Below the pieces are notes generated by a model, which did not search any database, was not told the DNA's origin, and saw only the letters and a list, made by a program, of their open reading frames with translations. From Flaccisagitta enflata (Eukaryota): 64,000 nt of DNA. Positions within the stretch are counted from its first letter, which is position 1, and each line of letters starts with the position of its first letter. A program made the position numbers and the translations under genes. Location: assembly GCA_965153355.1 (NCBI GenBank), contig OZ231126.1, positions 5,084,001-5,148,000 on the forward strand, given 5' to 3'. This document shows positions 838-63,196 of this stretch, one piece after another.

Positions 838-24012
<23,175 letters not shown>

Positions 24013-24094
24013 GTTGGGGGCTCTGTAGGTTGGCTGGTTGGCTGGCTAGTAGGTTGTTATGTTGGTTTTTTGGTGTGTTGATTCGTTGGTTGGG

Positions 24095-24348: not shown

Positions 24349-26136
24349 GCTGTTGTTGTTGTTGTTGTTGTTGCTGTTGTTGTTGTTGTTGTTGTTGTTG
24401 TTCACAGGCCGAAGAATAAGTTATCGGTGGGACTGAAAGCAGTCAACAATCGCTCACTGAGACATATTGAGTTTTCGGATCAAAGCGAGTAAAACTAAAA
24501 GCGAGTATCTCGGAACAAGATGTCCTCACAGCCTCTCCGACTGGTGTTGATTTTTGCGGTAATACTGTTTGACGGATTGTCCGATGGGGGGAAAAACTTG
24601 TCTGAAGCGATTCTAGGAAATACTAAAAGTGAATAAGATCATATTTACTTATATAACCGGAATGCACTTTAAGTTTAATTGTAAACGTGGCTTAACGGAT
24701 GGCAAAACAGAAGGTCGGATGGAGGTTCAGATGGACGGATGGACAGACGAAGGTACATATGAAATTTACACGTGAAAAACTACATGAAGATCAGAAACAC
24801 GACCCTGGCCATCGCCGAATCCGCTCATCTTCCAACGTCTCCTAAGACCCTCATTCAAGAGTCGCTTAGAGATTGTGTAGCGCGCGTAAAACAGACATGT
24901 GAGCAATGTTACGAAGTATGATCTACTATTAGATCAGGAAGAATTATTCAAACTTAAGGCAGCTGAACAGTCAATGCTTGCGTTGCGTAACGATTAACAA
25001 AGACGCGGACCCAAATTCACTGATTCTGGTATTGATACCTATGGCATAGGCATGGCTTACACATGGCCAGGCCATAGCTACGTTTTGTTACGATTAATAA
25101 TGAGATTACAATTAAAGATTTCAACGTTTTCTCTTTTTTAAGCGTCGAATTTCTTTATTCTTCATTAAGCTTTTTTTACCTCTTGCATCGATTTTGAAGG
25201 AAAGAAAAAAAAAACATTATTTTTCCAAATCGGAAGTCGCGAGTAAGGAAATTGATGAAGAAAAAAATGAGGAAGAAGAAGAAGAAGAAGAAGAAGAAGA
25301 AGAAGAAGAAGAAGAAGAAGAAGAAGAAGAAGAAGAAGAAGAAGAAGAAGAAGAAGAAGAAGAAAGAAGAAGAGAAGAAGGAAGGATACACAAGCCAGTT
25401 ACCAGACGGGTGGGCAGGGGGCAGAAATGCGCGTTTTGCCGCGCGACTCAATCATTACGGACCGACGGACCGACGGACCGAAGGACCGACGGACCGACGG
25501 ACAAAGCCTCTTATAGAGTTGCGTGTCCACAACTAAAAAGAGGAAGAAGAAGAAGAAGAAGAAGAAGAAGAAGAAGAAGAAGAAGAAGAAGAAGAAGAAG
25601 AAGAAGAAGAAGAAGAAAAGATTAGGTAGAAGAAGAAGGAGAAAAATAAGAAGAAGACGAAGAAGAAGAAGAAGAAGAAGAAGAAGAAGAAGAAGAAGAA
25701 GAAGAAGAAGAAGAAGAAGAAGAAGAAGAAGAAGAAGAAGAAGAAAAAGAAGAAGAAGAAGAAGAAGCAGAAGAAGAAGCAGAAGAGGAAGGAGAAATAG
25801 AAAAAAAAGAAGAAGAAGAAATAGAAAAAAAAAAGAAGAAGAAGAAGAAGAAGAAGAAGAAGAAGAAGAAGAAGAAGAAGAAGAAGAAGAAGAAGAAGAA
25901 GCAAGAAGATGAAGAAGAAGAGCAAGAAGAACAAAATCAGAAGAAAAAATTGCCCGATGATTCTTTTAAATGACAAAAAAAGGAAGGACCACCAACGTCT
26001 TTGGGCTAAATATCTGATATGTAATGTTTATCTTTTTAAACACTCTCTCTCTATAGCTGTTGTTATTTACGTATCATGTTTTCATCTGATGTTGATATTG
26101 TTGTTGATTTGGTTGTGGTGGTTGTTGCTGATTTAG

Positions 26137-27660: not shown

Positions 27661-27971
27661 TTTTTAGTTGCGGGCCCGCAACTCTATGGGAGGCTTAGTC
27701 CGTCCGTCCGTCCATCCGTCCGTCTGTCCGTCCGTCTGTCCGTCCGTCCGTCCGTCCGTCCGTCCGTTCGTCCGTCCCTCCGTCCGTCCGTCCGTCCGTC
27801 CATCCGTCCGTCCGTCCGTCCGTCCATCTGTCGGTAATGATCGAGTTGAAAAGTGGAAAAAAAAAGCGTTTTGGATACTTATTGTGTATGTTTGTGTGTG
27901 AGGGGTTGGATGGGGGTTGGACGCCCCAGCGCACCCGTCCGTAACGATATTGTGACGCCGCGTCACTTGTT
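27661..27971. mobile_element. DINE-1/HINE-like (non-autonomous Helentron-type) element, representative copy
   Basis: T-rich flank, terminal hairpin agttgcg..cgcaact, (GTCC)n microsatellite, subterminal repeat, and 3' stem-loop gtgac...gtcac followed by ttgtt. Related copies near 2680-2903, 25380-25539, 28060-28207, 32648-32790, 33441-33646, 35316-35512, 38771-38980, 45654-45830, 54914-55114, 58593-58832 and 61382-61562. Confidence 0.75.
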
Positions 27972-29820: not shown

Positions 29821-30898
29821 TTTTTCCGTAATTATATTGCCGCTTGTATTTATTCTTTTTAGATGCGTCCTCGCATCTCTAAAAGAGGGTCTGTCCGTCC
29901 GTCGGTCCGTTGGTCCGTCCGTTGGTCCGTCCGTTGGTCCGTCCGTTTGTCTGTCCATTACGCAAGTGCTAAAACCGCGTTTCTTGGCTGTTTTTGGCCA
30001 CGGTGAGATCTTATACTAAAACGAATGATCAACCAACATGTTTTGAAAGCCTTCTTTACTACTTTTTTACTACTTTTTTTTTACTACTTAGTCTTCACCC
30101 GTCTGTTCGTCCATCTGTCGCTCCATATATGTCACATGATCAATACACGTAGAGACACAGCCCGGACGCATCGTTGCCCGGTCGGGCTTGTTTGTCACAT
30201 TGAACCCATTCATCGCTTTCGTTTTCATTTTTTTCTTCATGTATGTTTGTCTATGTTGTGTGAGCCTGTCGCTCTATTGCTGAGGAATTTAACAAACCTC
30301 ATAGCTCGGCCTCCGTGATCAGTGATTCAGTCTGTAGTACTCTGTATGCCCCAGAAATTTGCGAGATCTAGACAGCTCAAGCGCCTAGCGTCGCGAGTTC
30401 CGATTACGCTTCTCTTGCACTTATTTTGCAATTTATTCAATTCATAGTAAGATTTGTATTTTGACACGTCACATCAATCAAAACAAACTTGATCACTTTT
30501 AAACACGGAAAGTCGTCTTTTATCATCTGCGCTTCGTAGATGCTGTCTCTTTAATCTGGTATTCAATTTTAATTTACTGAAACAAAATTTTGGCCTTCTA
30601 AGTAAATGGTGATCTTAAACCCGCAATATGCAAATTAGTTGTTACTGCATACATTGCTACAATTGCTTCCCATCTCGCTAGTTTCGATTACGTGTTTTTT
30701 TTTCATAATTTACCACGATTGCAATGATTACCATGCATGATTGACATGATTTACCACTCTCTCAAATTCTTTTTTATTTTCTCCCAAGACAACCCACTCC
30801 CTTCAGCGCAGCGACTGCTCCAGAATCCCTTGATAGTCTGTAGATTTTATACATATTTTGACATGAGTCAAGTAACTTGGCCAGTGACCACCGGATAG

Positions 30899-32818: not shown

Positions 32819-34219
32819 TTAGTCAGGTGAGATAAAACTGACCAGTCGTAACAAAACAGGGCCAGATAAACGACTGCTCCTGTCGCCTTTCGATGGGCAG
32901 GGGCAGCTATCAAGTAGGCCAAAGGAATACTCAATTTTACTGTAAGGCCCACAAGATTCCTTTTGTATTGGAGTTACTGCCCCTGCCCAAACGCACGCAG
33001 CTATTAAGATGGCCTTAGTTCATCGATGAGTCCATTGAACGTATGACAGACTAAGAATTGACAAATTATTGAGAAACGGACAAACGGACTGACCGTAAAA
33101 TTGGTCGATGTTAATAAAAACAAAATGTCCATCAATGTCATTGATCGTCACGCGACTGAAAATCAAAACCGGATGTACACGGTCGCCACAGTCGCGTTAG
33201 CGTGGGCAGGATCATCGATGGAAAGGGTAACTCAAGCATTGGAAATGGAACCATGAATTATATCAAATGAGCACAAAAGCGTTAGGATGGGCAGGGTGTT
33301 TCATGGAAGAGGTCATTTAGGCATCGGAGATAAGACCATCTGGTATATGAGTTTTTAATCGTGTTCAAAAACAGAAACACAGTTAAGAACAAAACATCAT
33401 TCAACTAAAACAATTGACAATCAAGGAGCTACAGTCGTGAGAACAAGTTACGCGGGGTCACATTATCGTTGCAGACGGGTGGGCAGGGGCATCCAACCCC
33501 CATCTATATCCCATGCCCCCACACATACACACAAACCATCGAAAACGCTCATTTTCACACTTTTCGACTCTTGTCCACAGACAGACCAACCAACCAACGG
33601 ACAGACGGACAAAGCCTCTTATAGAGTTGCGTGTCCGCGACTAAAAAGTAAGAGTGGCTTGTTCAAAATAGCGTCGTCTTTGTGTGAATGAATAACAGAC
33701 GGACGGATAAAGGGACGAACGGACGCGGACGGATAAATGGTCAGGCGAATCTGGGTATTAACTATAACTCCCGGGCACGCGATCAGATGTCATATCAGAA
33801 GTAAAATCGGCGATCAAAAACCATGACAGTTTTTATATGAAATGACGTCGTTGAAATTTAACCATTTTGTGATTCATTGTTAAGCTTTTATAAATTTTTT
33901 CTGGGTTTTCAAGGGTTTTGAAATTTTGTCCAGTTTCCACCCAAAAGCGGGAGATGATTAAGACGATGATGATGATCATACTGACGATGACGACGACGAC
34001 GAAGACGACGACTATGAGGAGGAGGAGGAGGTTGAGGAGGAGGAGGAGGAGGAGGAGGAGGAGGAGGAGGAGGAGGAGGAGGAGGCTGAGGAGGAGGAGG
34101 AGGAGGAGGAGAACAACGTCTTGGGTCGCTAAAACGGAGGAAAAAGTGTTATTGTCCGGCTTCAACCCATATTCACGGAGGAACCGAGTTCGCGGCATTC
34201 AGAGGCTTTCCCGAAATCT

Positions 34220-35172: not shown

Positions 35173-36479
35173 AGTCTGTCTGTCTGTCTGTCTGTGTGCC
35201 TACTCTTCCCTCTTTACCACCAGAATCAGAGAGTGACAGTTGAGCTTCACTGAACTGGACTTAAAACCCAAGTTTTAAAAGATTATATCACTGCCATGGT
35301 TATTTTTTTTTCTTTTTAGTTGCGGACACGCAACTCTATAAGAGGCTTTGTCCGTCCGTGGGTTGGTTGGTCCGTGGACATGAGTCGAAAAGTGAGGAAA
35401 TGAGCGTTTTAGATGCTTTTTGTGCATGTGAGTGGGGGACTTGTGGTGTGGATTGGGGTTGGATGCCCCTGCCCACCCGTCCGCAACGATATTGTGACCC
35501 AGCGTCACTTGTTAATGCTTTAAAGGTAAGTATGCGTAAAAAGCGAGTGCGCACTAGAAAGGTACGGTTATATCCTGTATATATCCTTGTCCCGATGCGT
35601 CGTGTCCGCCCCCTGCAACTATCAACACAGGACCCGAGGGTATGCGTCTCCAAGGAAATTCTAAAACTTATCGTGACTGAAATCTGATTGTATTTAACCA
35701 AAGCTAGAATTTTCTGTGGCGTGCATCCGATTCTCCATGTAACCATATTCTCTGATTCTCTAAGGTCCTTTGTATAATAATACAAAGCAGGACCCCTGAT
35801 TTTGTCTGATATTTAGTACCGCATTTTACAACAAAATCGTTTCAAATTGACCATTTGAAAAGCGACAAAAAATTCCTTTTATTGTGATTGTGGCGGTTTC
35901 AGACCATTTTTCTCTTTTTATTTTTGACCTCTTTAGATTTTGCTCTTGTTATCTTTTCCTTTTGTTAGTCGCGTTAACTCCCCCCCCCCCCCCGCCGGTT
36001 CGTCGATCTGTCTTTTTAGACGCTTTGAGAACTTCCTTTGCTACTCTGTCTTTTCATCTGATCGTCCATCTTTCTCTCCAAAAAGTCCAAATATGTCATA
36101 TATTAAGCGTCAAATTTGATACAAGCAGAGACTTAATCCTGAGGCGTCGTTCCCCCATCGGGCTTTGTTCTCCTTCCTCTCCTCCCTCTTTCTTCTTTTT
36201 ATCTCATGCAAGATACTCAAAAGTGTCTCTCTGTCGGTCAATCGGTCCGTTGGTCACACTTTTGTTTTAGGCGTTCACGGCCCGTTCCTCCACACGCGAT
36301 CATTCTTTGACCTAATTCTTTTTTTCCCTTTTTTTCTTTTTTTCTCTTCTTTTCTTTTCTCTTCCTTTTCTCCTCAAGGCCGATGATTGAAACGAACTCA
36401 AACTTTGTAAACAAAATAGAATCTCAGCATCCCGATATTTAATTTTAACGAAAAAAATGTAAATAACTCAACCTTAAAA

Positions 36480-47961
<11,482 letters not shown>

Positions 47962-48556: not shown

Positions 48557-49201
48557 TAGCTTGTACCTAAATGACTAAAAGCAATAAAATCAGAATTCTA
48601 CAAGTAGTTCTAGTTGTGGGGCTGTCTTGGGCTTCTAATGGCATCACTTTTGGTCTGAAAAATTTGCATCTTGCTGTCCGCGCCTTACCTTGAATTTTCC
48701 TTCAGCCTATGGGAAACCAAAAATTTCAAAGTGCTTAAATCTCTGTTTTGACTGCAGATTTGAAATCTGCAGAAAAAACTGTTAATTGAAAGTGCTTTCC
48801 TTTTTTCAATATTCCTTCGGGATCATAGTCAAAATTCATCTTAAAGATATAAAAAAAAGGTAAGTTTGGCGATTTTACATATAAATAAAAGAGAAAGGTA
48901 AGTTTTGCAAACTTTGACACTTATTTTGAGCACCTTCTAGTTGGAATATTGAAAAAAGGAAAGCACTTTCAATTAACAGTTTTTTCTGCAGATTTCAAAT
49001 CTGCAGTCAAAACAGAGATTTAAGCACTTTGAAATTTTTGGTTTCCCATAGGCTGAAGGAAAATTCAAGGTAAGGCGCGGACAGCAAGATGCAATTTTTT
49101 CAGACCAAAAGTGATGTCATTGGAAGCCCAAGACAGCCCCACAATAAGAACTACTTGTGGAGTTCTGATTTTATTGTTTATTGTCATTTCAGTACAAGCT
49201 A
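48557..49201. mobile_element. Foldback element with ~258-bp inverted arms, TAG...CTA ends and an 8-bp target duplication (hAT-like)
   Basis: Arms 48557-48814 and 48943-49201 are near-perfect reverse complements; ttgtatag lies on both flanks. Confidence 0.85.
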
Positions 49202-50328
49202 TTGTATAGCCTTTGTTGAGTGCTAGGTTGATTAGGTTTTGTGTCGCTTCCAATAGTGGTTAAAATCCTACTAAGAGAGAGAGAAAAATAGTCGCAAAAG
49301 CGTTAGATGGTCAGCGGTACCCGTGCCCTGCCTAAGTAGGTTGTGCTTGAAGTTGAGGGGGAGCAGGGCGGCGGCCCCGAAGGGGTCGATGATGTATGCT
49401 TTCACACATATGGGGGATTTTCTCCTCCTTCTCCTCCTCCTTCTTCTCCTCCATCCCTCCCCCTCAAATCCCAGTCTCGAGGCCCAAATTACAGTCTCAA
49501 GGCCCAAATCCCAGCCTCAAGGCCCAAATCCTAGCCTCAAGGCCCAAATCCTAGCCTGGAGGCTGAGATTTGGGATTCAAGACTGAAATCAGGGCCTCCA
49601 GGCTAGAATTTAGGCCATGAGGCTAGGATTTGGGCCTTGAGGCTGGGATTTGGACCTCAAGACTGGGATTTGGGCCTCAAGACTGGAATTTGGGCCTTGA
49701 GACTGGGATTTGAGGGGGGGACGTAGAAGAAGGAGAAGGAGAAGGAGGAGAAAATCCCCCATATGTGTGAAAGCATGGGTCATCAACCCCTTCGAGGCCG
49801 CTGCCCAAAAAAAAACTAGTCATCCAAGGATCGCACATGGTCAGCGGTACCCGATGCCCTGCTGAGTGATCCAGTGAAGAAGTGGAGAGAGAGCAGGGCA
49901 GCGGCCCCAAAGGGCCGATGTCCTGTAGAACACAGGGGGGAATTTTGAGACGTCTGTCCATCCTGAGGGGGCTCTAGATGGCTGATTTTTGCCACTGAAG
50001 GCATATCTGAGGGTTGGAGAGCATAATTAAGGCTTGGAGAGCAGATTTGAGGTTTGGCGGGCTGGTTTTAAGCTTGGAGGGCTAATTGAAGGTCTGGAGG
50101 GCAGATTTGAGGTCTGGGAGGTAGATTTAGGGCATGGGAGGGGGCTGATTTGAAGCCAAGAGGGCTGATTTTAGGCCTGGAGGGTTAAATTGAGTCCTGG
50201 GAGAGCTAATTTGAGGCCTTGATGGTCAACGGGGGGGGACGGAAGGATGGAAGGACGGACGGACGGACAGACGTCTCAAAATTCCCCCCTGTGTTCTACA
50301 GGACATCGGCCCTTTGGGGCCGCTGCCC

Positions 50329-50398
<70 letters not shown>

Positions 50399-50594
50399 GA
50401 CAGACAGACAGACAGAGAGTATCATGCTAGCCCACGGGCAATGTATCCGGCTAAGTCAAGTTGAATTTCATACTTACCAATTGTATGAGATGGCAAAATT
50501 TGAAGATTAAGTCAAAGTGATGTTCCCAATTATACAGGTGTGATTACTGACATCAGTGGCATGTTATCAACCACGACTGCCATCTTGGTTCCTT

Positions 50595-53500
50595 CTAACT
50601 TGGAATATCGATCTCAAGCAAGTGGTTGGGATGGTAGTTATCTAATTTGTCAATATAACCGCCGATGCAAATGATTTTGGAAACTCGATTTTCCTTCTCA
50701 ACTGTAACGGCTCTGTGATTCCACAATCCGCCGCCTTTTCCACAAAACTCCCCAGGAAGACTTTGGTCTTCGACCCACGTGGAATCTCGGGCGTTGAAAA
50801 TCATCACCTTGTTAGACACGTGTTTATCATATTCTCCACCTCCTAACAACAAGAGTTGAAAAGGCGGAAGAGCTGTCAATGACTGTGCTTCTGCGTTATG
50901 TTTCAGACCAAAATCGTGCAACTCTGACCACTGACTTGTTAGCATGTCCAAAACATGAAAGTCATTCATACAGGTTCCGCTAAAGCCACCATGAATGAAA
51001 ACTTTCGACCAAAGCCTTGTGACACCCATCAAAGTGCGTGGTTTTGGTCGAGATCCAGCAGTGGGAAAATTTGTATACTTCCTCTCACTCATATTGAATT
51101 TGACAATCTGATTGGTTCGAACAAGGAGTTCATTGAGTTTGATTGAATCTCCCCCTTGAATGAATTCGCTCCCAAGATACTGTGCTCTCATACCAAATCC
51201 TAAGTAAATGTCATCTTTGTACATCCACGCGGTATGGAGGAACCTTGGTGTGGGTAACGCGCCTTCAATCTTAACCTTTTCAAAGATGCCCTCTGAGTTG
51301 AGAGTGAAAAGCTCGTTGGTCATCTGATGTGGTTCTGAGGCATAAGTAGAATTTTTTCCACCAGAAATGTAAATGACATCATCCACAATGACACTTGCAG
51401 TTCTATTTGAGAAAGAAGGAATCTGCCCTTGAGCTGGAATTGATGACCAAGTCTTTGTCTCTATATTGTAAACATGAATCATGCTACTCGGGAGGAGAGA
51501 CCAACTTCCATCCTCTTGTCTCTGCATGCCTCCCCAAACAAAAATTTGATTTTTGATGCGTTGGGCAATGAATCCTTCACCACCTGGAAATCCAACTGTT
51601 GAATTCCATTTGGCATTGAGGGTGGCTGGAGAAGGGACGAGTTGAGGTGGAGGAAGAGGAGACTGGATCAAACCTGTGGAGAGAAAAAGAGGATGATTAA
51701 GGATTCTATTTCATAATAACAATAAATTCATTAAGCCAGGTTGCAAATGTTCAGACAACATGCATGAATAAGCCTACTCCTGCTTACCTCGCATTTGAGG
51801 TTTCCCGTAGTGAATGACCATTGAGCCTTTGTTGACATGTTTTCTACTGTGTGGTAACTTTGACAAAATTGATCCAGTGGCAGGCAAACAGAAAGCTATA
51901 AAGTCTTTGCCTTTAGCGAGAAATGGGTAGATGGAAAAAGGCTTGACATCAGGCCAGTTTATGGAGGTATTACCAAGCAATTTCTGCTCAAACAGTCTCC
52001 TCACTCTTTGCTTGAGTTCAGCGGGCAATTGACAAATTTCACAATTCTCTTTCACATGTTGGTACATTGCCGCAAAAAGGTTTGTTGATAAAGATTTCTT
52101 CAATCTTTTGTCCAAGTAAAAACCTTTTTGATCAACTAACTGAATGAAAGTCTGAATAACATTGGTGAGCAGTGATTCCTCATCTGACAGATTCATGCTT
52201 GTCTCAATCGCTTCACAGACCATTTGGACGAGTCTCCATTCATCTGCGGAGATGCAACTACCCAAAACCTGTTGGATGACATTGACAACCTTCTGTTGTG
52301 AGGATGATCTGTTGTCATGCCTTCGGATTAGAGCCAATGAACAACGAAAGACAGAGAGATGTGCATCTTTTAGACGACCCTCTTTGGTTTGGGTCTTCAT
52401 TGTGGAGGTGGTCTGACTAGCATACAGAGAGACAACCAGTTCTCTGAAACTTCGGTGGAAAAATTGAAACATCCAGACAGATCCAATGAGCTTCCTTTCA
52501 AAGAAATCCAAACAAAGAAGAAACTCAATTTCCTTGTCACATAAGCCAAGATTTTTCAGTGTTTTCCTCAAGCTAAGTTCTTCCAGATTCTGGAATCCTA
52601 TGAGGGAGTTACCATTGCAAATGAAGATGGTGTGACCCAATTTGACAAGAAGTTCTTTTTTCTCTTGAAACATTGTCAAAGGATCCATCAGCATAAGTTC
52701 TTCCTTTTCCTTGCAAAGAGAGCGCTGTTTTTCAGGAGAGAGACAAGTGTCAATCTCTATCTCGATGGATTTGAGCAGTGCAGCTTTTACATTCATAGCC
52801 AGTATAGCTTCAAAGATTTCTAATTCGTCTTTGAAGGTGCCATGGAAGTTGTCCTCATCAAACAAGCGGCAAATCATTGCCCCATTGATTGGAATGGAGA
52901 ACACTGATTTGATGATCTCATTTCCATGCCAAACTTGCAGGAGTGAGGATCGTTTTGTGGCTGCATTTTTGCCGGTGAATGGGAATTTCTCCATGAATAG
53001 CTCACACTGCCGGAGATTGAGGTTGTTCATTGCAAATTCCACTCTGGTTGTGTTGATCTGATCCAAAATCTGTTTCCCCTCATTGCGGGTCAAGATCAAA
53101 AACACACTCTTTGGAAAAAGTTGTTCATTTCTCTCCAGGAACTGTTGGGTTAAATGATGGGACGGGGACTCATCAAGTCCATCCAACATCCACAAGACTC
53201 TCTCCTGACATGTTCGAAACATTTCTTTGATCTTCTCAAGCTGCTCTTCGGAGTATAAAGATTCCAAAAAGGGATACTGCAACAACAGATTTTCAAAGAG
53301 GCTTTTTGTCATGTCAAGACGCTTGACATCCAGGCGTACAACTGCATAGAACTGATGGAGGCACTTGCCTTGGCCCCATCGATGCATTAGCTTTTTTGCT
53401 GCTGTGGTTTTTCCTCTTCCTCCAGCAGCAGTGATCAGAATTTTGAGATTCCCTCTTTTAATTTCACTTTCAATAGCATCACACATCTCATTAAACAAAA

Positions 53501-55334
53501 TTTGGATATAGTCCATGCTGGATGTTGAAGAAGAATCTGAAGAATCTGAAGAATCAGACTGGTAGCCAGAAGCTACACGAGCCATCATTGGATCTAACAG
53601 CTCAGCGTACTCTTTATCTGGTTCTTTTGCAATGGAATCTTGTTTTTCAGTAGACTCTTCACTTGGTATTTTTGCAACATATTCAAATTGCAAAGGTGTT
53701 TTTGGAGTTTCCCCCTCATCCAAAATGTTTTGATTGGACAAATCAGCTACAAGATCATCTGAACTTTCATCATTTCTGTCAGCCCCATCCTGATTATGCT
53801 TCCTACTTTTTACCTCAGGCAACACTCTTTGCATAGACTGATTGAGTACAGTTTCCTCCAGATCCATAAAAAAGGATGAGGCTGGTATAGGGATGCTTGA
53901 TAAATTTCTTCTCACATGTTCTTTTAAGTGGTTGGCAAATTCGTTCCCTATTTCTTGCATATTTGTTTGAGGAGTGGTCAAACTAAGTCCAGTTTCCATG
54001 GCATTTTGAATAGCTTCCAACTTTTGATTCAGCAGGGCAAGCTCATTGTGTGTATCTAGCTGAATGTGTTCTAGCTTTTCCACCATTTGGCCAATGGCCG
54101 GGTCCTTAGAGGGACTGCGCTTGGCATTTTGAATTGCTTCCAATTTTAGATTCAGCAGGGCAAGCTCATTGTGTGCCTCTAAATGAATTTGTTCAAGTTT
54201 TTCGACCATTTCACCAAGGGCCTGGTCCTGAATGGTACTGTTCGTGGCATTGTGTATAGCTTCCAACTTTTGATTCAGCAAGGAAAGATCATTGTGTGTA
54301 TCTTGCTGAATGTGGTTAAGCTTTTCAACCATTTCACCAATGGCAGGGTCCTGAAAGGGACTGTTCTTTGCATTTTGTATAGCTTCCAACTTTTGATTCA
54401 GCAGGGAAAGATCATTGTGTGTATCATGCTGAATATGGTCTAGCTTTTCAACCATTTCAGCAATGACCGGGTTCTGAATGGGACTGTTCTTGGTATTTTG
54501 AATAGCTTCTAACTTTTGATTCAGCAGGACAAGCTCATTGTGTGTATCTAGCTGAATGTGTTCTAGCTTTTCAATCATTTCGCCAATGACTGGGTCCTGA
54601 ATAGGACTGTTCTTGACCTTTAGTAGCTTGTTGACCCATTTTTCTGAGACATGGGCTTTTGATGCAAACAAGTCTCGCAAAATTCGAAATAGTTGAGAAA
54701 ATCCATCTTCATACTCTGGTAGGGACATTTCCATCTTGGTTCCATGGGCATTGGCATTTCTCAGCTCTTTCAAAGGCTTAAATATTTCCTTCTCGGGGTC
54801 TTCAGCCAACTTTTCCAGAACATATGCAATACATGTTATGTCTAATCCGGAGAATGTAAAGATCTTGTGACCTTCGTGTTCTACTTTTTGATGTTTGTTG
54901 AAAAACCAGTATTTTTTGTTGCGGACACACAACTCTATAAGAGGCTTTGTCCGTCCGTCAGTCCGTTGGTCCGTCATGGTGATGGAGTTGAAAATGATTG
55001 TTTTCGATACTTTTTGTGTAAGTTTGAGTGTTGGAGGTGGGTTGGGGTGTGGATTGGAGTTGGATGCCCCTGCCCACCCGTCTGCAATGATATTGTGACC
55101 CCGCGTCACTTGTTTCATGTAGGACTCATTGGCCTTGTGCCATTGAATCCATAAATTGCCATCAACCCATGGCTTGCTGAAGACCTTCTCCAATAGCACA
55201 ATGACATAATCCTGGCCTATCAGTGAAGAGAGACTTATGGCGATGTTCCATCTCATCAAAAGTTGTTGTCCCTCGTCAAAGATGTTTGGGTTCAGTAATG
55301 TTGCGGAGTGATGGAGCCCAGTTGTGGGCTCCAT
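50595..55334 (-). CDS. NLR-like STAND protein: DZIP3-like HEPN + 41-aa helical repeats + NACHT NTPase + Kelch propeller (~1541 aa, 2 coding exons)
   Basis: Exon 55334-51788 (CGA G|gtaagc) splices in phase 1 to exon 51673-50595 (ccacag|GT TTG). Motifs: LDIT...LKELRNANAH (HEPN Rx4H), ILITAAGGRGKTT (Walker A), LWMLDGLDE (Walker B), LILTR, FQFFHRSFRE (winged helix), and Kelch-type repeats IFVWGG / IYISGG / VFIHGG / LLLLGG / ICIGG with spaced Trp/Tyr. Confidence 0.85.
54000..54614 (-). repeat. Five 123-bp (41-aa) coding tandem repeats in the NLR-like gene
   Basis: KNSPIQDPVIGEMIEKLEHIQLDTHNELVLLNQKLEAIQNT-type unit, five copies. Confidence 0.92.
54914..55114. mobile_element. HINE-like element inserted inside the open frame of the HEPN-NACHT exon
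   Basis: Same ends and internal motifs as the copies at 35316 and 58593; contributes about 66 codons (QVTRGHNIIADGWAG...KPLIELCVRN). Confidence 0.85.
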
Positions 55335-56042
55335 CCAAAATCCAACTCTTTCTTGAATGTTCCAAAATCCAACCAAAATCCAACTCTTTCTTGAATGTTC
55401 CAAAATGATCACAGTTGCAAAAGTTACGTCATTGGAACAAAATTAATGTAGCAGGTTTGAAGTGGGATAAATGGCGGAACTACAGAGAGATAAACCAAAT
55501 GGACGATCGGCTGGGGAAGGAGGTGGGGAGGGGTGAGAAGGGATTGCTTTACTTTTAATTGTACATTCTTTCCGGTGAATCCAGTTAAGGTAGCGACAGT
55601 AATTGAACGGAATGAATCAGAAAATTTCAATTTGTAACAACCTTACTAAAAAAAAACTGACTATTAGTTTGCTGATACCCGGATATGTCAATTAAGCAAA
55701 CTTTACATGGATTTTTGAAGATGATTCAGGAAATGCTTGATTGTGTCAATCCTTCAATATTAAGAAATGTTGTTGGTTGCAGGATAACCAGGCCAACACC
55801 TACGAGTTGCATGCATGACATAAATAATGTAAGCTAACTTTCATTGACATAAGATGTCTTAAAAAGACGTAAAATGACATAAAACGACAAAGTAAAGCTA
55901 AGCATTAACAATGGGCAGACCAGCATACAGAGTTTTACAGACGGACCAACGGACAGAGCGGGTCATGTAGTCGCTTGTCGGCGACTGAACACATCATATT
56001 GATGTTTACTATCACATGCTCTTTTACCAACGCCATGGACTA

Positions 56043-58359: not shown

Positions 58360-60606
58360 CAGAGAGTCAGAGAGAGAGACAGAGAGAGACAGAGAGAGAG
58401 AGACAGAGAGACAGATGGATAGACAGGTACATATAGTGACAGACTGGTACAGATACACCGAAATTGAATTATGAAAAATTGAGATAGAAGGGGGTTGAGA
58501 AAGAGAGACACTAGGACAGGTGCAAAGTAAAACAGCAGGAAGGAAAGTGAGGAGGCAAGAAGTAAAATAGTAAAGGTAGTAGAAAGTATGGAAACAAGTG
58601 ACGCGGGGTCACAATATCGTTGTGGACGAGTGAGCAGGGGCAGCTAACCCCCATCCACACCCAACAGCCCACCAAACACCCTTTCCAACACAGACACAAG
58701 AAGCTTCAAAACGCTCGTTTTTCCAGTTTCCGACTCCTGCTCAGTGAGCAGTGCAGTGTTCACGGACCAATGGACCAACGGACCAACGGACGGACAAAGC
58801 CTCTTATAGAGTTTCGTGTCCGCAACTAAAAAGATGGTCAGATGGAGTACAAAAAAGAAAGAGAAGGATGAGGGAAAGGACGGAAAGAATGGGGAAAGGA
58901 ATATTTGAAGGGAAATAGAGGGAGGTAGAAAGGAGAAAGGAAAAGAAAGATGCACGCAAACAGGAGGGCAAGTACGGATGGAATAAGGTTGAGCATGATG
59001 GAAGAAAAGTGGAAGGCCGAAGCGGCAGTGCAGTGAAGGGAGATGGATGGATGGACGGCATGACTGACTAAGACAAACAAGAAACAAAAGGGTAGAAACG
59101 GAGAGTCAAAGATAGAGACAAAGAGAAAGAGTATAGAAGTAGATGCATCCAGAGAGAAAGAGAGAGAGAGAGACTTGGATATACAGAGGGAGTTTATTGC
59201 TGGCGAGAATTCTTAGAATTATCGCTACCGAGAATCAGGGTTTTTCGCGCTACCGAGAATTCTCGGTAGCGTTAAAATAGTAAGAGAAATTTGATTCTTG
59301 CTATAGAGAATTTGTTTCTCCTTTTCTCTGCATTTCCTTCTGCTTTCTTTTCTTTCTTTTTTTCCTTCCTCTCTTTTTTTTTCCTTTTTTTTTACACCAT
59401 TTTTAGTTGCAGACACGCAACTCTTTAAAAGGCTTTGTCCATCCTTCCGTCGGTTGGTCCATCCGTTGGTTGGTTGGTTTCATTTTTTTTCATTTCTTTT
59501 CCTTCTACTGTTCTTTCTTTTTTACTTTCTTTGTTTTCCTTTTTTCGCTTTTTCTTTTTTTTCTCTCTCTCTTTTTCTCTATCTTTCTTTTTTCCTCTCT
59601 TTCTCTTTTTAGTCGCGTGCACGCGACTCTACACCTTGCCGTTTCGGTCGGTAGGTCAGTCGGTAGGTCGGTCTGTAACATTTTTAAAATAATGACTTTT
59701 TATGTTTTTTTTTAGGTAATTTAAGGTACTCTAGGGTATTTCAGGGTACTTTAGGGTACTTTAGGGTATTTAAGTTTTTCTAGGTACTTAAGGTACTTTA
59801 AGGTACTTTCAGATATTTTCAGGTACTTCTAGGTATTTTTGAGTATTTTTGAGAACTTTTGGGTGTTTCTGGGTATTTTTGGGTATTTTTGGGTATTTTT
59901 GGGTGTTTTTGAGTATTGTATTGGACCAGTATTGTATTGATATTGTATCAAAATTGTATCGACATTGTATCACTACATATCGCGTGGCCTTAGGGGGAGG
60001 AACTCTTTTGTTTCTTATTTCCAGACGCAAGCAACTGTTGCCCTCTTGGGCTCGTTTTTTCCTTTTTCTCTTTTTGTTTTTTTTTTTTTCTCTGTTTTTT
60101 TTTTCTTTGTTTCTTTTTTTTCTTCTTTTCGTCTTTGTTCCTTGTTTCCTTTTTTTGTTCTTCTTTTTTTTTCTATCTTTCTGTTTTTTTTTGTTTTTTT
60201 CGTCTTTGTTCCTCCCTTCTTTTCTTCCTTTCTTCTTTTTTTTATTTTTTCTTTGTCGTTTTTCTTTCTTTTTTTTTCATTCTTTTTCTTTTTCTCTTTC
60301 TCAATATCTTTTTCATCTCTTTATTTGAGTGTAATGTGTCCTTTCATAAGTGCAACTCAAAATTGGTAATAATAAATAAAATATTTCTTAAAAATTTTGA
60401 TAACAAAGATAAAATAAAAAACATTTGAAAAATAAAGCTATAAAAATTTGTTTGATGAAGAAATATTTTCTTTGAAAAACCTGAACAAGAAATGATATTA
60501 ATTTTTCAATGAAAAATTTATCCTTATATTTTAATTTTTTAGGGTTTGACATTCATTTTTTGTAAAGGCCTTCTCTCCCACTGGAAACTTGTTCATTAAA
60601 CTAATA

Positions 60607-61290: not shown

Positions 61291-62731
61291 CTGTGTGTGT
61301 GTTTCTGTAAATGTTTGTGTGTGTGTCTAGAACAAGTCTTAAACGTTTTTATGCAATTTTTTTTTTTTTTTTTGTCTGTTTTTAGTTGCGGACACGCAAC
61401 TCTATAAGAGGCTTTGTCCGTCCGTCCGTCCGTCCGTCCGTCCGTCCGTCCGTCCGTCCGTCCGTCCGTCCGTCCGTAACCATCGAGTCGAAAAGTGTGA
61501 AAACGCGCATTACCGCCCCTGCCCACCCGTCTGCAACTGATGGCCGTGTATCCGGCCTTGTTTTTTTCATCGCTTGCCATTTGTTTGTCCGTTTTTCAAA
61601 TAACCTACGGCGAATTTACATTCAAGTTTATAGCTTAGTAATTGTCGCCCATCAGAGGTGGTCTCAGAGCCTCGCCATTTCGTAACATACTTTGACTACT
61701 ATAACATCAAAGGCGTTTAAAGGGCATCGGTTACTGATCTCCGACTGCGTATATTTTGTTGAGTAATTAGAATGTAATAATGAGTTAGTTAGAGTTAATA
61801 TCTACACTCCATGAGTGGTTCCCTGTGCCGCGCCGGAGCTTTGAGTTGATTGATATAATTTACATTTAAAAAAAATGTCAAATGACTATCATTAGTCAGT
61901 CGCGAATGACCTCTATAGAAAGAACAAGGCCAAATACACGGCTACCCAAGTCGCGTGTGGGTGGGCAGGGGCAGTGTTAAACGAGGCTGGATACACGGCT
62001 ACCCCAGTCTAGGGCTGCAGAAATTTTTTTGCTTCCTACGAGGGCAATTTTCACATGTTTACCTTCTTACTGGCAATCTTATCAGCGTAATACCTCTTGA
62101 AAGAAAAAAAAAAGAAGCAGAGATAGATACAGAAAGAAACAGAGACAGAAAAAAACTTACTCTCTATTTGTCTGTTTCTTTTCCTCTCTTTTTCCTCCTT
62201 AATTTCTCTTTGACCTTTTTTCATTTTTTTCCATTTTTTTCTTCTTTTTTTTTTTCTTTCTTTTCTTCCACTTTTTTTCCTTGGCCTTCTTTTCCTTCCT
62301 ACTTGCCTTGCTTGCTTCCTACGAGCGCCGCTCGCGTGCTCGGCCACTTTCTGCTGCCCTGCCCCAGTCGCTTGCGGGTGGGCAGGGGCCATATTTGAGG
62401 TCACATGACCATTTGGGCAGTAGGGTCAAAGAATGAAAATAGTAGGGTCAAAAAATGAAAAGCATAAAAAAAGTAAAATGTGACCAACCAACAGACAGAC
62501 CGACCAACAACGCGTAGCACGCGACTAAAAAGGCTTTCCAAGCATTTGGGTGATGGTAAGTAATCTACAAACCGCCCATAAAAGCACGAACTGTGAGGGA
62601 CTGACCAACTGACCAACCGAGTGATAGATCGACAAAGCGGGATATTGAGCCGCTTAACACACAACTAAAAAGAAGTAAAGAAACTTGGTATATAAAGTCA
62701 AAAGACACCTCCTTAACTCGAAGGCTCAGCC

Positions 62732-63159
62732 ATGGAGTTTCAGTCTCTATTCGCTCTTTTGACATTTTGTACGGGGGTGATTTTCACGTCAGTTGATATT
62801 GGCAGTGACGTTGCCCTCGCTCAAGAGTACTGGTCCAACTGTTTCAAAAACGATTCTAACAAAACCATAGATAACAATACGGCTTATGATCCATCAAACA
62901 GTCTAGATGCCGGTGATAACTGTGTTTTTACATTGCCGACAACGCTGTGGATCGCACTTTGCGGGATAGTTCAATTCTTCATTATAGCGCGTTGTCTGTA
63001 TCGTGGCGACGTGCGCCTGAAAGTGTTGCCTAAACCATTTCGGGCCCTTCTTCTCTGCTCCTCGCTTATTTTGCTTGGTCCAATTGTCCTCAACGTGTTT
63101 GGCGTTGCGCTGGTTCTTCAACACACAAATAACGACCGAAGAGCAGAAGATATTGTCAG
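62732..63159 (+). CDS. First coding exon of a probable XK-related multi-pass membrane protein (continues downstream)
   Basis: gccATGG start; pattern hydrophobic-DIGSDVALAQEYW ... TLWIALCGIVQ ... ILLGPI resembles the XK-family N-terminus; three hydrophobic segments; donor AG|gtattc at 63159. Confidence 0.55.
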
Positions 63160-63196
63160 GTATTCATAACAATGGAATGGCAAGATTCGAGATAGA

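What the first reader, a model, noticed from the sequence alone, without database searches (positions are those of the whole stretch)
50595..55334. HEPN-NACHT-Kelch: NLR-like receptor with a putative RNase effector and a Kelch propeller in place of LRRs
Seen: two ORFs join through a short phase-matched GT-AG intron (51787-51674) into one ~1541-aa protein. It has an intact Rx4H motif (RNANAH, 54761-54744) after an LDIT motif, NACHT Walker A/B and winged-helix motifs, and a C-terminal Kelch-like propeller. Established: STAND/NACHT proteins follow an effector-NTPase-sensor layout; HEPN Rx4-6H domains are dimer-activated RNases; DZIP3-like HEPN domains fuse to STAND NTPases in some invertebrates, usually with LRR, ankyrin, TPR or WD40 sensors. 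Inference: a ligand-gated RNase-type innate immune or cell-death receptor with an atypical Kelch sensor, analogous to prokaryotic STAND-nuclease defence proteins.
Basis: partly seen in the sequence, partly recalled or inferred. Interest (0 to 1): 0.82.

Follow-up and report, generated by a model that had tools for sequence, protein, structure and literature searches.

The report
HEPN-like NACHT receptor with Kelch tail
An animal gene that seems to encode an NLR-type immune switch with an RNA-cutting-type head and, joined through a short intron, a Kelch propeller where leucine-rich repeats usually sit; the parts are real, but the join and the function are still inferred.

Summary
Two same-frame minus-strand ORFs (55334-51788 and 51673-50598) are separated by a 114-nt GT-AG gap and would join into 1541 codons, with RNANAH at 54761-54744. 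NACHT (Pfam E 1.9e-10) and a KLHDC2-type Kelch propeller (E 1.6e-46) are certain.

The N-terminal domain matches no Pfam HEPN model at threshold and is not DZIP3-like. It belongs to a small unnamed family (8 relatives among 1.84 billion representatives) with invariant R-N-x-x-A-H. Its only weak profile, fold and language-model matches are to HEPN families (Swt1, Csm6/CARF-HEPN). I read it as a divergent HEPN domain (about 0.8).

The Kelch join rests on sequence alone. The donor and acceptor are among the best in the window, and the Kelch frame has no ATG before its first blade. One RNA run gave no reads on the gene, and the three long relatives carry no Kelch.

A dispersed ~200-bp repeat is inserted in frame (64 aa) inside the HEPN-like domain. 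Five 41-aa coiled-coil repeats lie between head and NTPase.

HEPN-NACHT proteins are already described in invertebrates, so this is a new variant of a known kind. Function is untested.

The parts
51788..55334 (-). Exon 1 (3547 nt, 1182 codons plus 1 base): head, coiled-coil repeats, linker, NACHT and C-terminal helical region. ATG at 55334-55332.
   Evidence: ORF list and sequence. The relatives P0014 and P0005 start at a similar distance before the conserved IY.E..Q stretch. An upstream 5' exon cannot be excluded, because P0001 has about 185 more N-terminal residues.
55110..55292 (-). HEPN-like domain, first part (aa 15-75: two long helices and short helices).
   Evidence: 39% identity over 61 aa to P0001, E 2e-12. 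79% identity to P0002. pLDDT is above 90 in the model.
54912..55117 (-). Copy of a dispersed ~200-bp repeat inserted in frame, adding about 64 aa (aa 76-139) to a loop of the HEPN-like domain.
   Evidence: blastn finds other copies in the window: 82% at 35313-35513 and 77% at 33438-33647, plus partial copies near 58.6-58.8, 61.4, 27.7-27.9, 25.5, 45.8, 59.4, 29.9 and 2.7-2.9 kb. All 8 relatives that span the point lack the insert. pLDDT is below 50 for aa 80-140. RNA reads from other copies pile up only here. No usable in-frame splice pair surrounds it.
54615..54917 (-). HEPN-like domain, second part (aa 140-240): beta hairpin, LDIT helix, helix ending in RNANAH, and two more helices.
   Evidence: A representative search with aa 142-242 found 8 true relatives. 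R192, N193, A196 and H197 are invariant. There are sub-threshold HEPN profile hits. The fold matches Csm6 and Swt1 at Z 6.8-7.1.
54744..54761 (-). Rx4H motif RNANAH (aa 192-197), the predicted catalytic motif.
   Evidence: Coordinates. Invariant R, N, A and H in 10 of 10 rows.
54000..54614 (-). Five tandem 41-aa (123-nt) units (aa 241-445), predicted coiled-coil stalk. The relatives have one unit.
   Evidence: TRF: period 123, 5.0 copies, 84% matches. Units listed. One unit in P0001, P0014, P0013 and P0004. dN/dS is 0.27-0.79 in 10 of 10 unit pairs.
53832..53903 (-). Conserved short motif LSSIPIPASS...VLNQSM (aa 478-501), function unknown.
   Evidence: The core is invariant in 5 of 5 rows of alignment A3.
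53499..53831 (-). Acidic, Ser-rich, poorly conserved linker (aa 502-612).
   Evidence: Sequence. The alignment is gapped and variable here.
52992..53426 (-). NACHT NTPase domain (aa 637-781), with Walker A 53403-53423 and Walker B 53169-53195.
   Evidence: PF05729 E 1.9e-10, 41.2 bits against 26.7. Motif coordinates. GGRGKTTAA is invariant in 5 of 5 rows.
51789..52991 (-). C-terminal NACHT-associated region (aa 782-1182), conserved in the relatives. No Pfam family.
   Evidence: 34% identity over 785 aa to P0001, E 4e-148. No Pfam hit in this region.
51674..51787 (-). Predicted 114-nt GT-AG intron, phase 1. It contains the in-frame stop at 51774-51776.
   Evidence: Sequence. Donor score 10.46 (4 of 3040 GT sites are as good). 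Acceptor score 13.89 (best of 4299 AG sites). There is no transcript evidence.
50595..51673 (-). Exon 2: a roughly 35-aa Pro-rich linker and a KLHDC2-type Kelch propeller (358 aa), with the stop at 50595-50597.
   Evidence: PF24681 E 1.6e-46. Human KLHDC2 structures E 2.7e-19, query 32-301 against chain 33-309. The first Met of the frame is residue 49, inside the Pfam match that starts at residue 37.

Best explanation
This is one intact minus-strand gene of an SSR-rich animal genome, and it encodes a STAND/NLR-type protein of about 1541 aa. From N- to C-terminus it has these parts:
1. A divergent HEPN-superfamily domain with RNANAH. Its family is not covered by Pfam and is nearest to Swt1 and Csm6-type HEPN. 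Here it carries a 64-aa loop insertion derived from a dispersed repeat.
2. A stalk of five 41-aa coiled-coil units.
3. A conserved short motif followed by an acidic linker.
4. A NACHT NTPase with intact Walker A and B motifs, plus its helical C-terminal region.
5. After a 114-nt intron, a six-blade-type Kelch propeller related to KLHDC2.

Proposed mechanism, which is inference from how STAND proteins and HEPN RNases are known to work: the propeller holds the NTPase closed until it binds a protein or peptide ligand. Nucleotide exchange then lets the NACHT modules oligomerise. This brings HEPN domains together in pairs, so that two Rx4H motifs form a composite RNase site that cuts RNA, giving an antiviral, translation-arrest or cell-death output.

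Shown: the domains, the motifs, the family and the splice signals. Inferred: the splicing, the RNase activity, the gating and the immune role.
For: Gene and domains:
- The ORFs are open and in one frame, and the joined length is 1541 codons.
- NACHT scores 41.2 bits against a cut-off of 26.7, and Kelch scores 158.8 bits against 50.
- Walker A and B are intact, and GGRGKTTAA is invariant in 5 of 5 relatives.
- dN/dS is below 1 in 10 of 10 pairs of the tandem units, so the frame was under constraint after the units expanded.

HEPN reading:
- An exhaustive HMMER search found 10 hits at E<=1e-3. Eight are true relatives and two were dropped as low-complexity proteins.
- R, N, A and H of RNxxAH are the only invariant columns in 10 of 10 rows.
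- 9 of 10 rows have a HEPN-named Pfam family among their weak hits. These are Swt1 in 3 rows (best E 2.5e-4, spanning profile positions 13-101 of 115), RiboL-PSP in 3, Cthe_2314 in 3, DZIP3 in 2 and MAE_28990 in 1.
- An independent library, PADLOC, gives CARF_HEPN models for 4 and 2 of 10 rows and RTasHEPN for 2.
- The AlphaFold models are confident: pLDDT 85.6 for the insert-free relative, and above 90 outside the insert for the window's own protein.
- Foldseek's top 7 rows are all Csm6 chains of one entry, at E 0.1-0.6.
- VIA-align ranks S. mutans Csm6 first (Z 7.1, rmsd 3.8, 112 aligned) and the yeast Swt1 HEPN domain fourth (Z 6.8, rmsd 4.2, 118 of 136 aligned). Values for the window's own model are similar.
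- Further HEPN proteins appear: HepS, a HEPN toxin, HEPN-MNT and AF_0298.
- The nearest ESM Atlas cluster (score 0.87) carries HEPN_Swt1 in 20% of its members.

Kelch join:
- The donor and acceptor are among the best on this strand of the window, lie 114 nt apart, and are phase-compatible.
- The Kelch frame has no ATG before blade 1.
- Nothing else that looks coding lies between the two ORFs.
Against: - No Pfam HEPN model reaches its cut-off. The window's best is 14.8 bits against 27.1, and the family's best is 21.8 against 27.5.
- All fold matches have Z below 8 and are tied with unrelated helical bundles such as acyl-CoA dehydrogenase C-terminal domains and bromodomains. The tool itself states this is within noise for helical proteins. 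No Foldseek match has E<=0.001.
- The three long relatives (P0001 and P0012, 1125 aa; P0014, 954 aa) contain no Kelch. They run 22-24 unrelated residues past the position of the window's donor. So the Kelch join is either lineage-specific or not real.
- No protein with a close Kelch domain plus extra length was found.
- In about 6% of one poly-A RNA run, no read lay on the gene outside the repeat, so neither expression nor the junction is shown.
- The repeat insertion sits inside the putative effector domain and might disable it.
- No canonical poly-A signal lies within 1.4 kb after the stop.
Confidence: 0.55

Rival explanations
1. The locus makes two separate products. The HEPN-like-NACHT protein ends at ...PQMRGKQE* (1186 aa) without any repeat sensor, as its relatives appear to. 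The Kelch ORF is an unused remnant, or an exon of another transcript, for example a retrocopy of a KLHDC2-like gene.
For: P0001, P0012 and P0014 end 22-24 residues after the equivalent position and have no Kelch domain. No NACHT+Kelch relative was found. There is no RNA evidence for the junction. The Kelch part aligns to KLHDC2 from that protein's residue 33 onward, as a near-full-length copy of a stand-alone gene would.
Against: The Kelch frame has no ATG before residue 49, which lies inside blade 1. The acceptor at 51673 is the best of 4299 AG sites, and the donor at 51787 is matched by only 4 of 3040 GT sites. Both are in phase and exactly bracket the stop. The 358-codon Kelch frame is intact, with a Pfam E of 1.6e-46. 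The tails of the relatives past the junction point resemble neither each other nor anything else, as read-through into introns would look.
Confidence: 0.25
2. The locus is a silent or decaying copy. The repeat insertion broke the effector domain, and the gene is no longer used.
For: A 64-aa insertion lies inside the head, and it is absent from all 8 relatives that span the point. There was zero RNA depth on the gene in the part of the run that was read. Only poor splice signals surround the insert.
Against: 1541 codons are open with every motif intact. The insert lies in a surface loop between helices that still pack at pLDDT above 90 in the model. dN/dS is below 1 among the tandem units. Immune receptors are often barely expressed without a challenge, and only about 6% of one run was read.
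Confidence: 0.15
3. The head is a helical bundle that keeps an RNxxAH motif for binding or oligomerisation. It acts as an adaptor or RNA sensor, not as a nuclease.
For: No HEPN model reaches its threshold, and fold scores are within noise. PMC8662601 (passage read) notes that HEPN proteins were predicted to be either RNA sensors or RNases. Non-catalytic HEPN domains exist (established knowledge, for example the HEPN parts of Roquin; recalled).
Against: R, N and H are the very residues needed for HEPN catalysis, and they are the only invariant columns besides one Ala. The Asn after the Arg is typical of HEPN proteins in general (PMC9646362, passage read).
Confidence: 0.2

Closest known systems
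Invertebrate HEPN-NLRs. These include bivalve DZIP3/hRUL138-like HEPN-NACHT proteins (more than 50 in the pearl oyster; PMC9646362, passages read) and HEPN-NLRs in nine invertebrate taxa (PMC8662601, passage read).
   Same: They share an N-terminal Rx4H HEPN-type head with Asn after the Arg, a central NACHT, and a variable C-terminal repeat domain. A predicted immune or RNA-directed role is untested in both cases.
   Different: The head here does not match PF18738 and belongs to a separate small family. The C-terminal domains reported there are LRR, TPR and WD40, not Kelch. This protein also has a 5 x 41-aa coiled-coil stalk and a repeat-derived insertion.
Swt1 C-terminal HEPN endoribonuclease domain (PDB 4pqz) and Csm6/Csx1 CARF-HEPN RNases (PDB 4rgp, 6tug, 5yjc).
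   Same: These are the best weak profile and fold matches. HEPN_Swt1 reaches E 2.5e-4 for P0005. CARF_HEPN hits 4 of 10 rows. Z is 6.8-7.1 over 112-118 residues.
   Different: All scores are below family thresholds, identity is 5-12%, and the partner domains differ (PIN or CARF instead of NACHT).
RNase L (established knowledge, recalled). It has an ankyrin-repeat sensor, a pseudokinase and a KEN/HEPN RNase that is activated by ligand-induced dimerisation.
   Same: The logic is the same: a repeat-domain sensor controls pairing of a HEPN RNase in animal innate immunity.
   Different: RNase L has no STAND NTPase, its RNase is C-terminal, its ligand 2-5A is known, and there is no sequence relationship beyond the superfamily.
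KLHDC2, a Kelch-propeller substrate receptor of CUL2 ligases that reads C-terminal degrons (PDB 6do3, 8sge).
   Same: It is the closest solved relative of the Kelch part, at E 2.7e-19 over about 270 residues.
   Different: In the KLHDC2 stretch GGRYRDARMND, both Arg residues are lost here (GG-FSGTCMND), and the Ser of GRSWHS is Glu. That these residues bind the degron carboxylate is recalled, not tested. The frame here stops about where the propeller is expected to end. One search aligns residues 32-301 of 358, so I did not check whether the ligase-docking tail of KLHDC2 is missing.
Prokaryotic STAND-nuclease defence proteins (Avs, bNACHT; established knowledge, recalled).
   Same: The effector-NTPase-sensor layout is the same, with activation by oligomerisation.
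   Different: They have different effectors and sensors and a different kingdom of origin. This is an analogy only.

Membership tests
NACHT NTPase (PF05729) | Profile score at or above Pfam's gathering score | tested here: met
   41.2 bits against 26.7, E 1.9e-10, aa 637-781. The relative P0001 scores 44.9 bits.
NACHT NTPase (PF05729) | Intact Walker A (GxxxxGK[ST]) and Walker B (hhhhD[GD]xDE) motifs. The motif definitions are recalled. | tested here: met
   GGRGKTT at aa 638-644 and LWMLDGLDE at aa 714-722. Walker A is invariant in 5 of 5 rows.
HEPN superfamily | Conserved Rx4-6H motif | tested here: met
   RNANAH at aa 192-197. R, N, A and H are invariant in 10 of 10 rows.
HEPN superfamily | Significant match to any curated HEPN profile | tested here: not met
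   The window's best is HEPN_Cthe2314 at 14.8 bits against 27.1. The family's best is HEPN_Swt1 at 21.8 bits against 27.5. Nine of 10 rows have only sub-threshold HEPN hits. PADLOC CARF_HEPN reaches a best E of 5.7e-4.
HEPN superfamily | Helical-bundle fold superposable on solved HEPN domains | tested here: inconclusive
   Csm6 4rgp gives Z 7.1 (rank 1) and Swt1 4pqz gives Z 6.8 with 118 of 136 residues aligned. Values are similar. Six HEPN entries appear. All have Z below 8 and are tied with unrelated bundles. Foldseek E is 0.1 or higher.
HEPN superfamily | Metal-independent RNase activity that depends on the Arg and His | not testable with these tools
   This needs a biochemical assay.
DZIP3/hRUL138-like HEPN (PF18738) | Profile score at or above the gathering score (27 bits) | tested here: not met
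   The window's protein has no hit even at E<=10. Two of 10 relatives hit at 13.7-15.3 bits.
Kelch propeller, KLHDC2/KLHL20/DRC7 type (PF24681) | Profile score at or above the gathering score | tested here: met
   158.8 bits against 50, E 1.6e-46. KLHDC2 structures match at E 2.7e-19.
KLHDC2-type C-degron receptor | The Arg pair and Ser of the degron pocket. Their role is recalled from the KLHDC2 structure papers, which I did not read here. | tested here: not met
   The alignment shows KLHDC2 GGRYRDARMND against GG-FSGTCMND here, and GRSWHS against A-EAQS.
NLR-type tripartite receptor (effector - NACHT - repeat sensor in one chain) | All three modules on one transcript or polypeptide | tested here: inconclusive
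   The splice signals and phase are strong and the Kelch frame has no own start. But no RNA reads cover the gene, and the relatives have no Kelch.

The most novel reading that the evidence does not exclude
This would be an animal NLR-type receptor whose sensor is a Kelch propeller taken from the KLHDC2 family of protein-end readers. It would have been added to an older HEPN-coiled-coil-NACHT gene by capture of a single intron-less exon, since the relatives lack it. Its effector would be a previously unnamed HEPN RNase family. That combination would be a natural example of sensor swapping in a metazoan STAND protein, and of a protein-sensing (not nucleic-acid-sensing) switch wired to an RNase.
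Probability: 0.35. Interest if true: 0.65.

Novelty: new variant of a known kind. Interest (0 to 1): 0.45.

Why it matters
HEPN-NLR genes are numerous in invertebrate genomes, but none has been tested. Nobody knows what they sense or whether the head really cuts RNA.

A member with a Kelch propeller related to a well-understood peptide reader would offer a tractable sensor for ligand hunting. The small divergent HEPN family found here extends the set of HEPN heads attached to animal STAND proteins beyond the DZIP3-like type.

The locus also shows in one gene how such receptors diversify: possible exon capture of a sensor, tandem growth of a coiled-coil stalk, and exonisation of a mobile repeat inside the effector.

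If the join is not real, what remains is an ordinary member of a known class, though an unannotated one.

Tried and rejected
- Whole-genome paralog census: no genome is held for this window.
- RNA evidence: no RNA holder was listed, and one same-study poly-A run was offered. About 6% of it was laid on 50430-56040. This gave 99 reads, all only partly fitting and all on the repeat at about 54930-54975. Depth was zero on the rest of the gene and no joints were seen. This says nothing about the splice.
- Word-index protein searches: the head (aa 60-260) gave none. The NACHT half gave 1 hit (P0001) among 8000 scored candidates. The Kelch part against longer proteins gave none.
- Two scans of metagenome contigs, one with alignment A3 and one with the Kelch part, matched patterns in 253 and 273 stretches. 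None was confirmed.
- PDB sequence searches with the head profile and with P0005 gave only chance-level rows.
- NCBIfam gave nothing relevant.
- Homodimer prediction of the head gave 'no answer' at score 0.00. It used ESMFold2 without my alignment. It is not evidence either way.
- I considered a cryptic intron that would remove the repeat insert (GT 55109 ... AG 54933, 177 nt, in frame) and rejected it. The donor scores 4.39 (241 GT sites are as good) and the acceptor scores -9.13. No in-frame pair has donor above 2 and acceptor above 0.
- The tails of P0001 and P0014 past the junction point were compared with the Kelch frame. No similarity was found, with best E 0.24-0.51.
- P0007 and P0010 were dropped before alignment. 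They are long low-complexity repeat proteins that match only 26-28 residues.
- Literature: four searches for a NACHT+Kelch architecture found no paper describing one. The hits were co-mentions of NLRP3 and Keap1 or unrelated papers. The one sponge paper I opened lists Kelch genes separately. Supplementary tables, for example domain-architecture lists in PMC9646362, could not be seen and might list such proteins.
- Earlier notes of this scan: nothing on this genome or on look-alike sequence. A word search gave only bacterial cases.
- Rfam found no family in the window.
- Four neighbouring ORFs had no Pfam hit.

Full report
**1. Observation**

On the minus strand there are two long open frames. 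One runs 51774..55442 (1222 aa stop to stop, first Met at 55334). The other runs 50595..51710 (371 aa). They are in the same frame.

The sequence between them reads ...CGA G|GTAAGC...tctttttctctccacag|GT TTG... This is a GT at 51787 and an AG at 51674, giving a 114-nt interval in phase 1 that contains the stop at 51774. Removing it rebuilds a Gly codon (...PQMR-G-LIQSP...). Exon 1 (3547 nt) plus exon 2 (1076 nt) give 1541 codons.

The named motifs are at these coordinates:
- RNANAH: 54761-54744
- LDIT: 54845-54834
- Walker A GGRGKTT: 53423-53403
- Walker B LWMLDGLDE: 53195-53169

**2. Certain domains**

Pfam places a NACHT domain at aa 637-781 (E 1.9e-10, 41.2 bits against a cut-off of 26.7). 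It places a KLHDC2/KLHL20/DRC7-type Kelch domain in the second frame (E 1.6e-46, 158.8 bits against 50).

The Kelch part is closest to human KLHDC2 among solved structures, at E 2.7e-19, with residues 32-301 aligned to 33-309. Its nearest ESM Atlas clusters, at scores 0.93-0.96, are Kelch-only proteins of about 330-360 aa.

In the KLHDC2 alignment, both Arg of GGRYRDARMND and the Ser of GRSWHS are not kept here. From memory, these residues hold the C-terminal degron in KLHDC2. If so, the ligand is probably different.

**3. The head**

No Pfam HEPN model reaches its cut-off on the window's protein. The only hit is HEPN_Cthe2314 at E 0.03-0.1.

An exhaustive HMMER search of 1.84 billion representatives with aa 142-242 gave 10 proteins at E<=1e-3. 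Two are low-complexity repeat proteins, and I dropped them. The other eight are true relatives at 31-79% identity. A word-index search with the NACHT half found one long relative, P0001 (1125 aa, E 1.6e-124). Cluster look-up added P0012, P0013 and P0014.

In the alignment of ten rows, the only invariant columns are R192, N193, A196 and H197. F144, G155, F161, D165, T167, F185 and F212 are nearly invariant.

Scanned one by one, nine of the ten rows have a HEPN-named family among their weak Pfam hits. Each hit is centred on this motif:
- Swt1 in 3 rows. The best is P0005 at E 2.5e-4 and 21.8 bits against 27.5, covering profile positions 13-101 of 115.
- RiboL-PSP in 3 rows.
- Cthe_2314 in 3 rows.
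- DZIP3 in 2 rows.
- MAE_28990 in 1 row.

For the tenth row, the part of P0001, I saw no per-member table. Full-length P0001 had no HEPN hit at E<=10.

PADLOC, an independent library, gives CARF_HEPN models for 4 and 2 of 10 rows and RTasHEPN for 2.

The AlphaFold models are confident. The window's own head has 127 residues at pLDDT 90 or more, with aa 80-140 below 50. The insert-free relative has mean pLDDT 85.6 and pTM 0.76.

The fold searches gave these results:
- Foldseek finds nothing at E<=0.001. Its top rows are Csm6 chains: 6 of the top 10 and the top 7, with best E 0.099.
- VIA-align against 48,161 chains ranks S. mutans Csm6 first (Z 7.1, rmsd 3.8, 112 aligned) and the yeast Swt1 HEPN domain fourth (Z 6.8, rmsd 4.2, 118 of 136 aligned). 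Cas13, LsoA and AbiF score 5.7-5.8. One search is similar.
- A second look at Foldseek's list adds HepS, a HEPN toxin, HEPN-MNT and AF_0298 at Z 4.6-5.3.
- None of these Z values exceeds the noise level that the tool states for helical bundles. Unrelated bundles such as acyl-CoA dehydrogenase tails and bromodomains are tied with them.

The nearest ESM Atlas cluster (0.87, lead level only) carries HEPN_Swt1 in 20% of its members.

Each line is weak, but all point the same way. I conclude that this is a divergent HEPN-superfamily domain (about 0.8). It is not a member of the DZIP3-like family, and it is nearest to Swt1 and Csm6-type HEPN.

**4.

(a) Repeat insertion. In all 8 relatives that span the point, the residues ...HMKKY(K/R)F... 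are contiguous. The window has 64 extra residues (aa 76-139) between ...SYMK and KYWFF....

The DNA at 54912-55117 is a copy of a dispersed repeat with many other copies in the window. The best are 82% identical at 35313-35513 and 77% at 33438-33647. The only RNA reads that lay on the region came from other copies of this repeat.

The frame through the repeat is open. No acceptable in-frame splice pair surrounds it, so it is probably exonised. In the model it is a disordered loop between well-packed helices.

(b) Tandem units. Between head and linker lie five tandem 41-aa units (123 nt, 84% matches). The relatives have one unit. dN/dS among the units is 0.27-0.79 in 10 of 10 pairs. This argues that the frame stayed under constraint after the expansion.

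(c) Conserved motif. A 24-aa motif, LSSIPIPASS...VLNQSM, is nearly invariant in 5 of 5 rows. Its function is unknown.

**5. Is the Kelch exon part of the gene?**

For:
- With a simple weight matrix (weights recalled), only 4 of 3040 GT sites on this strand score as high as the donor. The acceptor is the best of 4299 AG sites.
- The two sites lie 114 nt apart, are in compatible phase, and exactly bracket the stop.
- The Kelch frame has no ATG before residue 49, which lies inside the first blade.

Against or open:
- P0001, P0012 and P0014 have no Kelch. They continue 22-24 residues past the equivalent Gly, with tails that resemble nothing. This could be read-through into an intron at a conserved boundary, or it could be a true short C-terminus. 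I could not fetch their DNA.
- No NACHT+Kelch relative turned up.
- The one RNA run gave zero depth on the gene in the roughly 6% that was read.

I put the fused reading at about 0.65-0.7.

**6. Mechanism (inference)**

By analogy with STAND proteins and with dimer-activated HEPN RNases such as RNase L and Csm6 (established knowledge, recalled), the mechanism would run in these steps:
1. The propeller keeps the NACHT closed.
2. A bound protein or peptide ligand permits nucleotide exchange and oligomerisation.
3. The coiled-coil stalk and oligomer bring heads together in pairs.
4. The paired Rx4H motifs form an RNase site.

The homodimer prediction gave no verdict.

**7. Comparison with what is known**

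HEPN-NACHT proteins are documented. The pearl oyster has more than 50 NACHT proteins with N-terminal DZIP3-like HEPN domains and C-terminal LRR, TPR or WD40 (PMC9646362, passages read). HEPN-NLRs occur in nine invertebrate taxa (PMC8662601, passage read). HEPN RNase domains recur in metazoan death and immunity architectures (PMC8195603, passages read). Their function is untested in all of these.

Four literature searches found no described NACHT+Kelch architecture. Supplementary domain tables could not be opened.

This locus is therefore a new variant of a known kind. It has a different HEPN family, a Kelch tail that is inferred but not shown, a stalk expansion and an exonised repeat.

**8. 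Verdict**

Interest is moderate (0.45). The parts are real and the combination is unusual. But the class is known, the join is unproven, the gene may be poorly expressed, and the function is inferred.

Noticed in passing
window 54912-55117; other copies at 35313-35513, 33438-33647, 58591-58838, 61379-61541, 27661-27971, 25403-25539, 45673-45831, 59399-59460, 29856-29943, 2681-2904: A dispersed ~200-bp repeat family contains a GACGGAC-type core. One of its frames is commonly open, so it shows up in several spurious ORFs (for example ...LYKRLCPSV... on the opposite strand). RNA reads from other copies are abundant in the one run laid.
   Followed up: partly
window 53832-53903 (-): A 24-aa motif, LSSIPIPASS...VLNQSM, lies between the coiled-coil units and the acidic linker. 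It is almost invariant in 5 of 5 family members although its surroundings vary. It matches no known family and its role is unknown.
   Followed up: no
window 55330-55406: A 38-nt unit is duplicated in tandem (97% matches) and overlaps the predicted ATG at 55334. It might affect the 5' end or the choice of start.
   Followed up: no
window 49175-50594 (-): No AATAAA or ATTAAA lies within 1.4 kb downstream of the stop. The first are at 49182 and 49175. The interval is full of simple repeats (AG run at 50334-50419, 20-nt tandem at 50000-50219).
   Followed up: no
window 20680-24045 (-): A 1121-codon open frame is rich in Ser, Ala, His and Gly and is flanked by very long CAG/CAA-type runs (about 20.7-21.4 kb and 24.0-24.5 kb). 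The part 21200-24045 has no Pfam family. It may be a real low-complexity gene or just a repeat-driven open frame.
   Followed up: partly
window 62717-63169 (+): A 150-aa open frame with hydrophobic stretches looks like a membrane-protein exon. It has no Pfam hit at E<=0.01.
   Followed up: partly
whole window: Simple-sequence repeat density is extreme: GA/CT, GT/CA, CAG and AAC runs of hundreds of bases, for example at 12.8-13.4, 16.6-17.1, 36.8-37.5, 57.1-58.2 and 60.9-61.3 kb. No Rfam family reaches its gathering score anywhere.
   Followed up: partly
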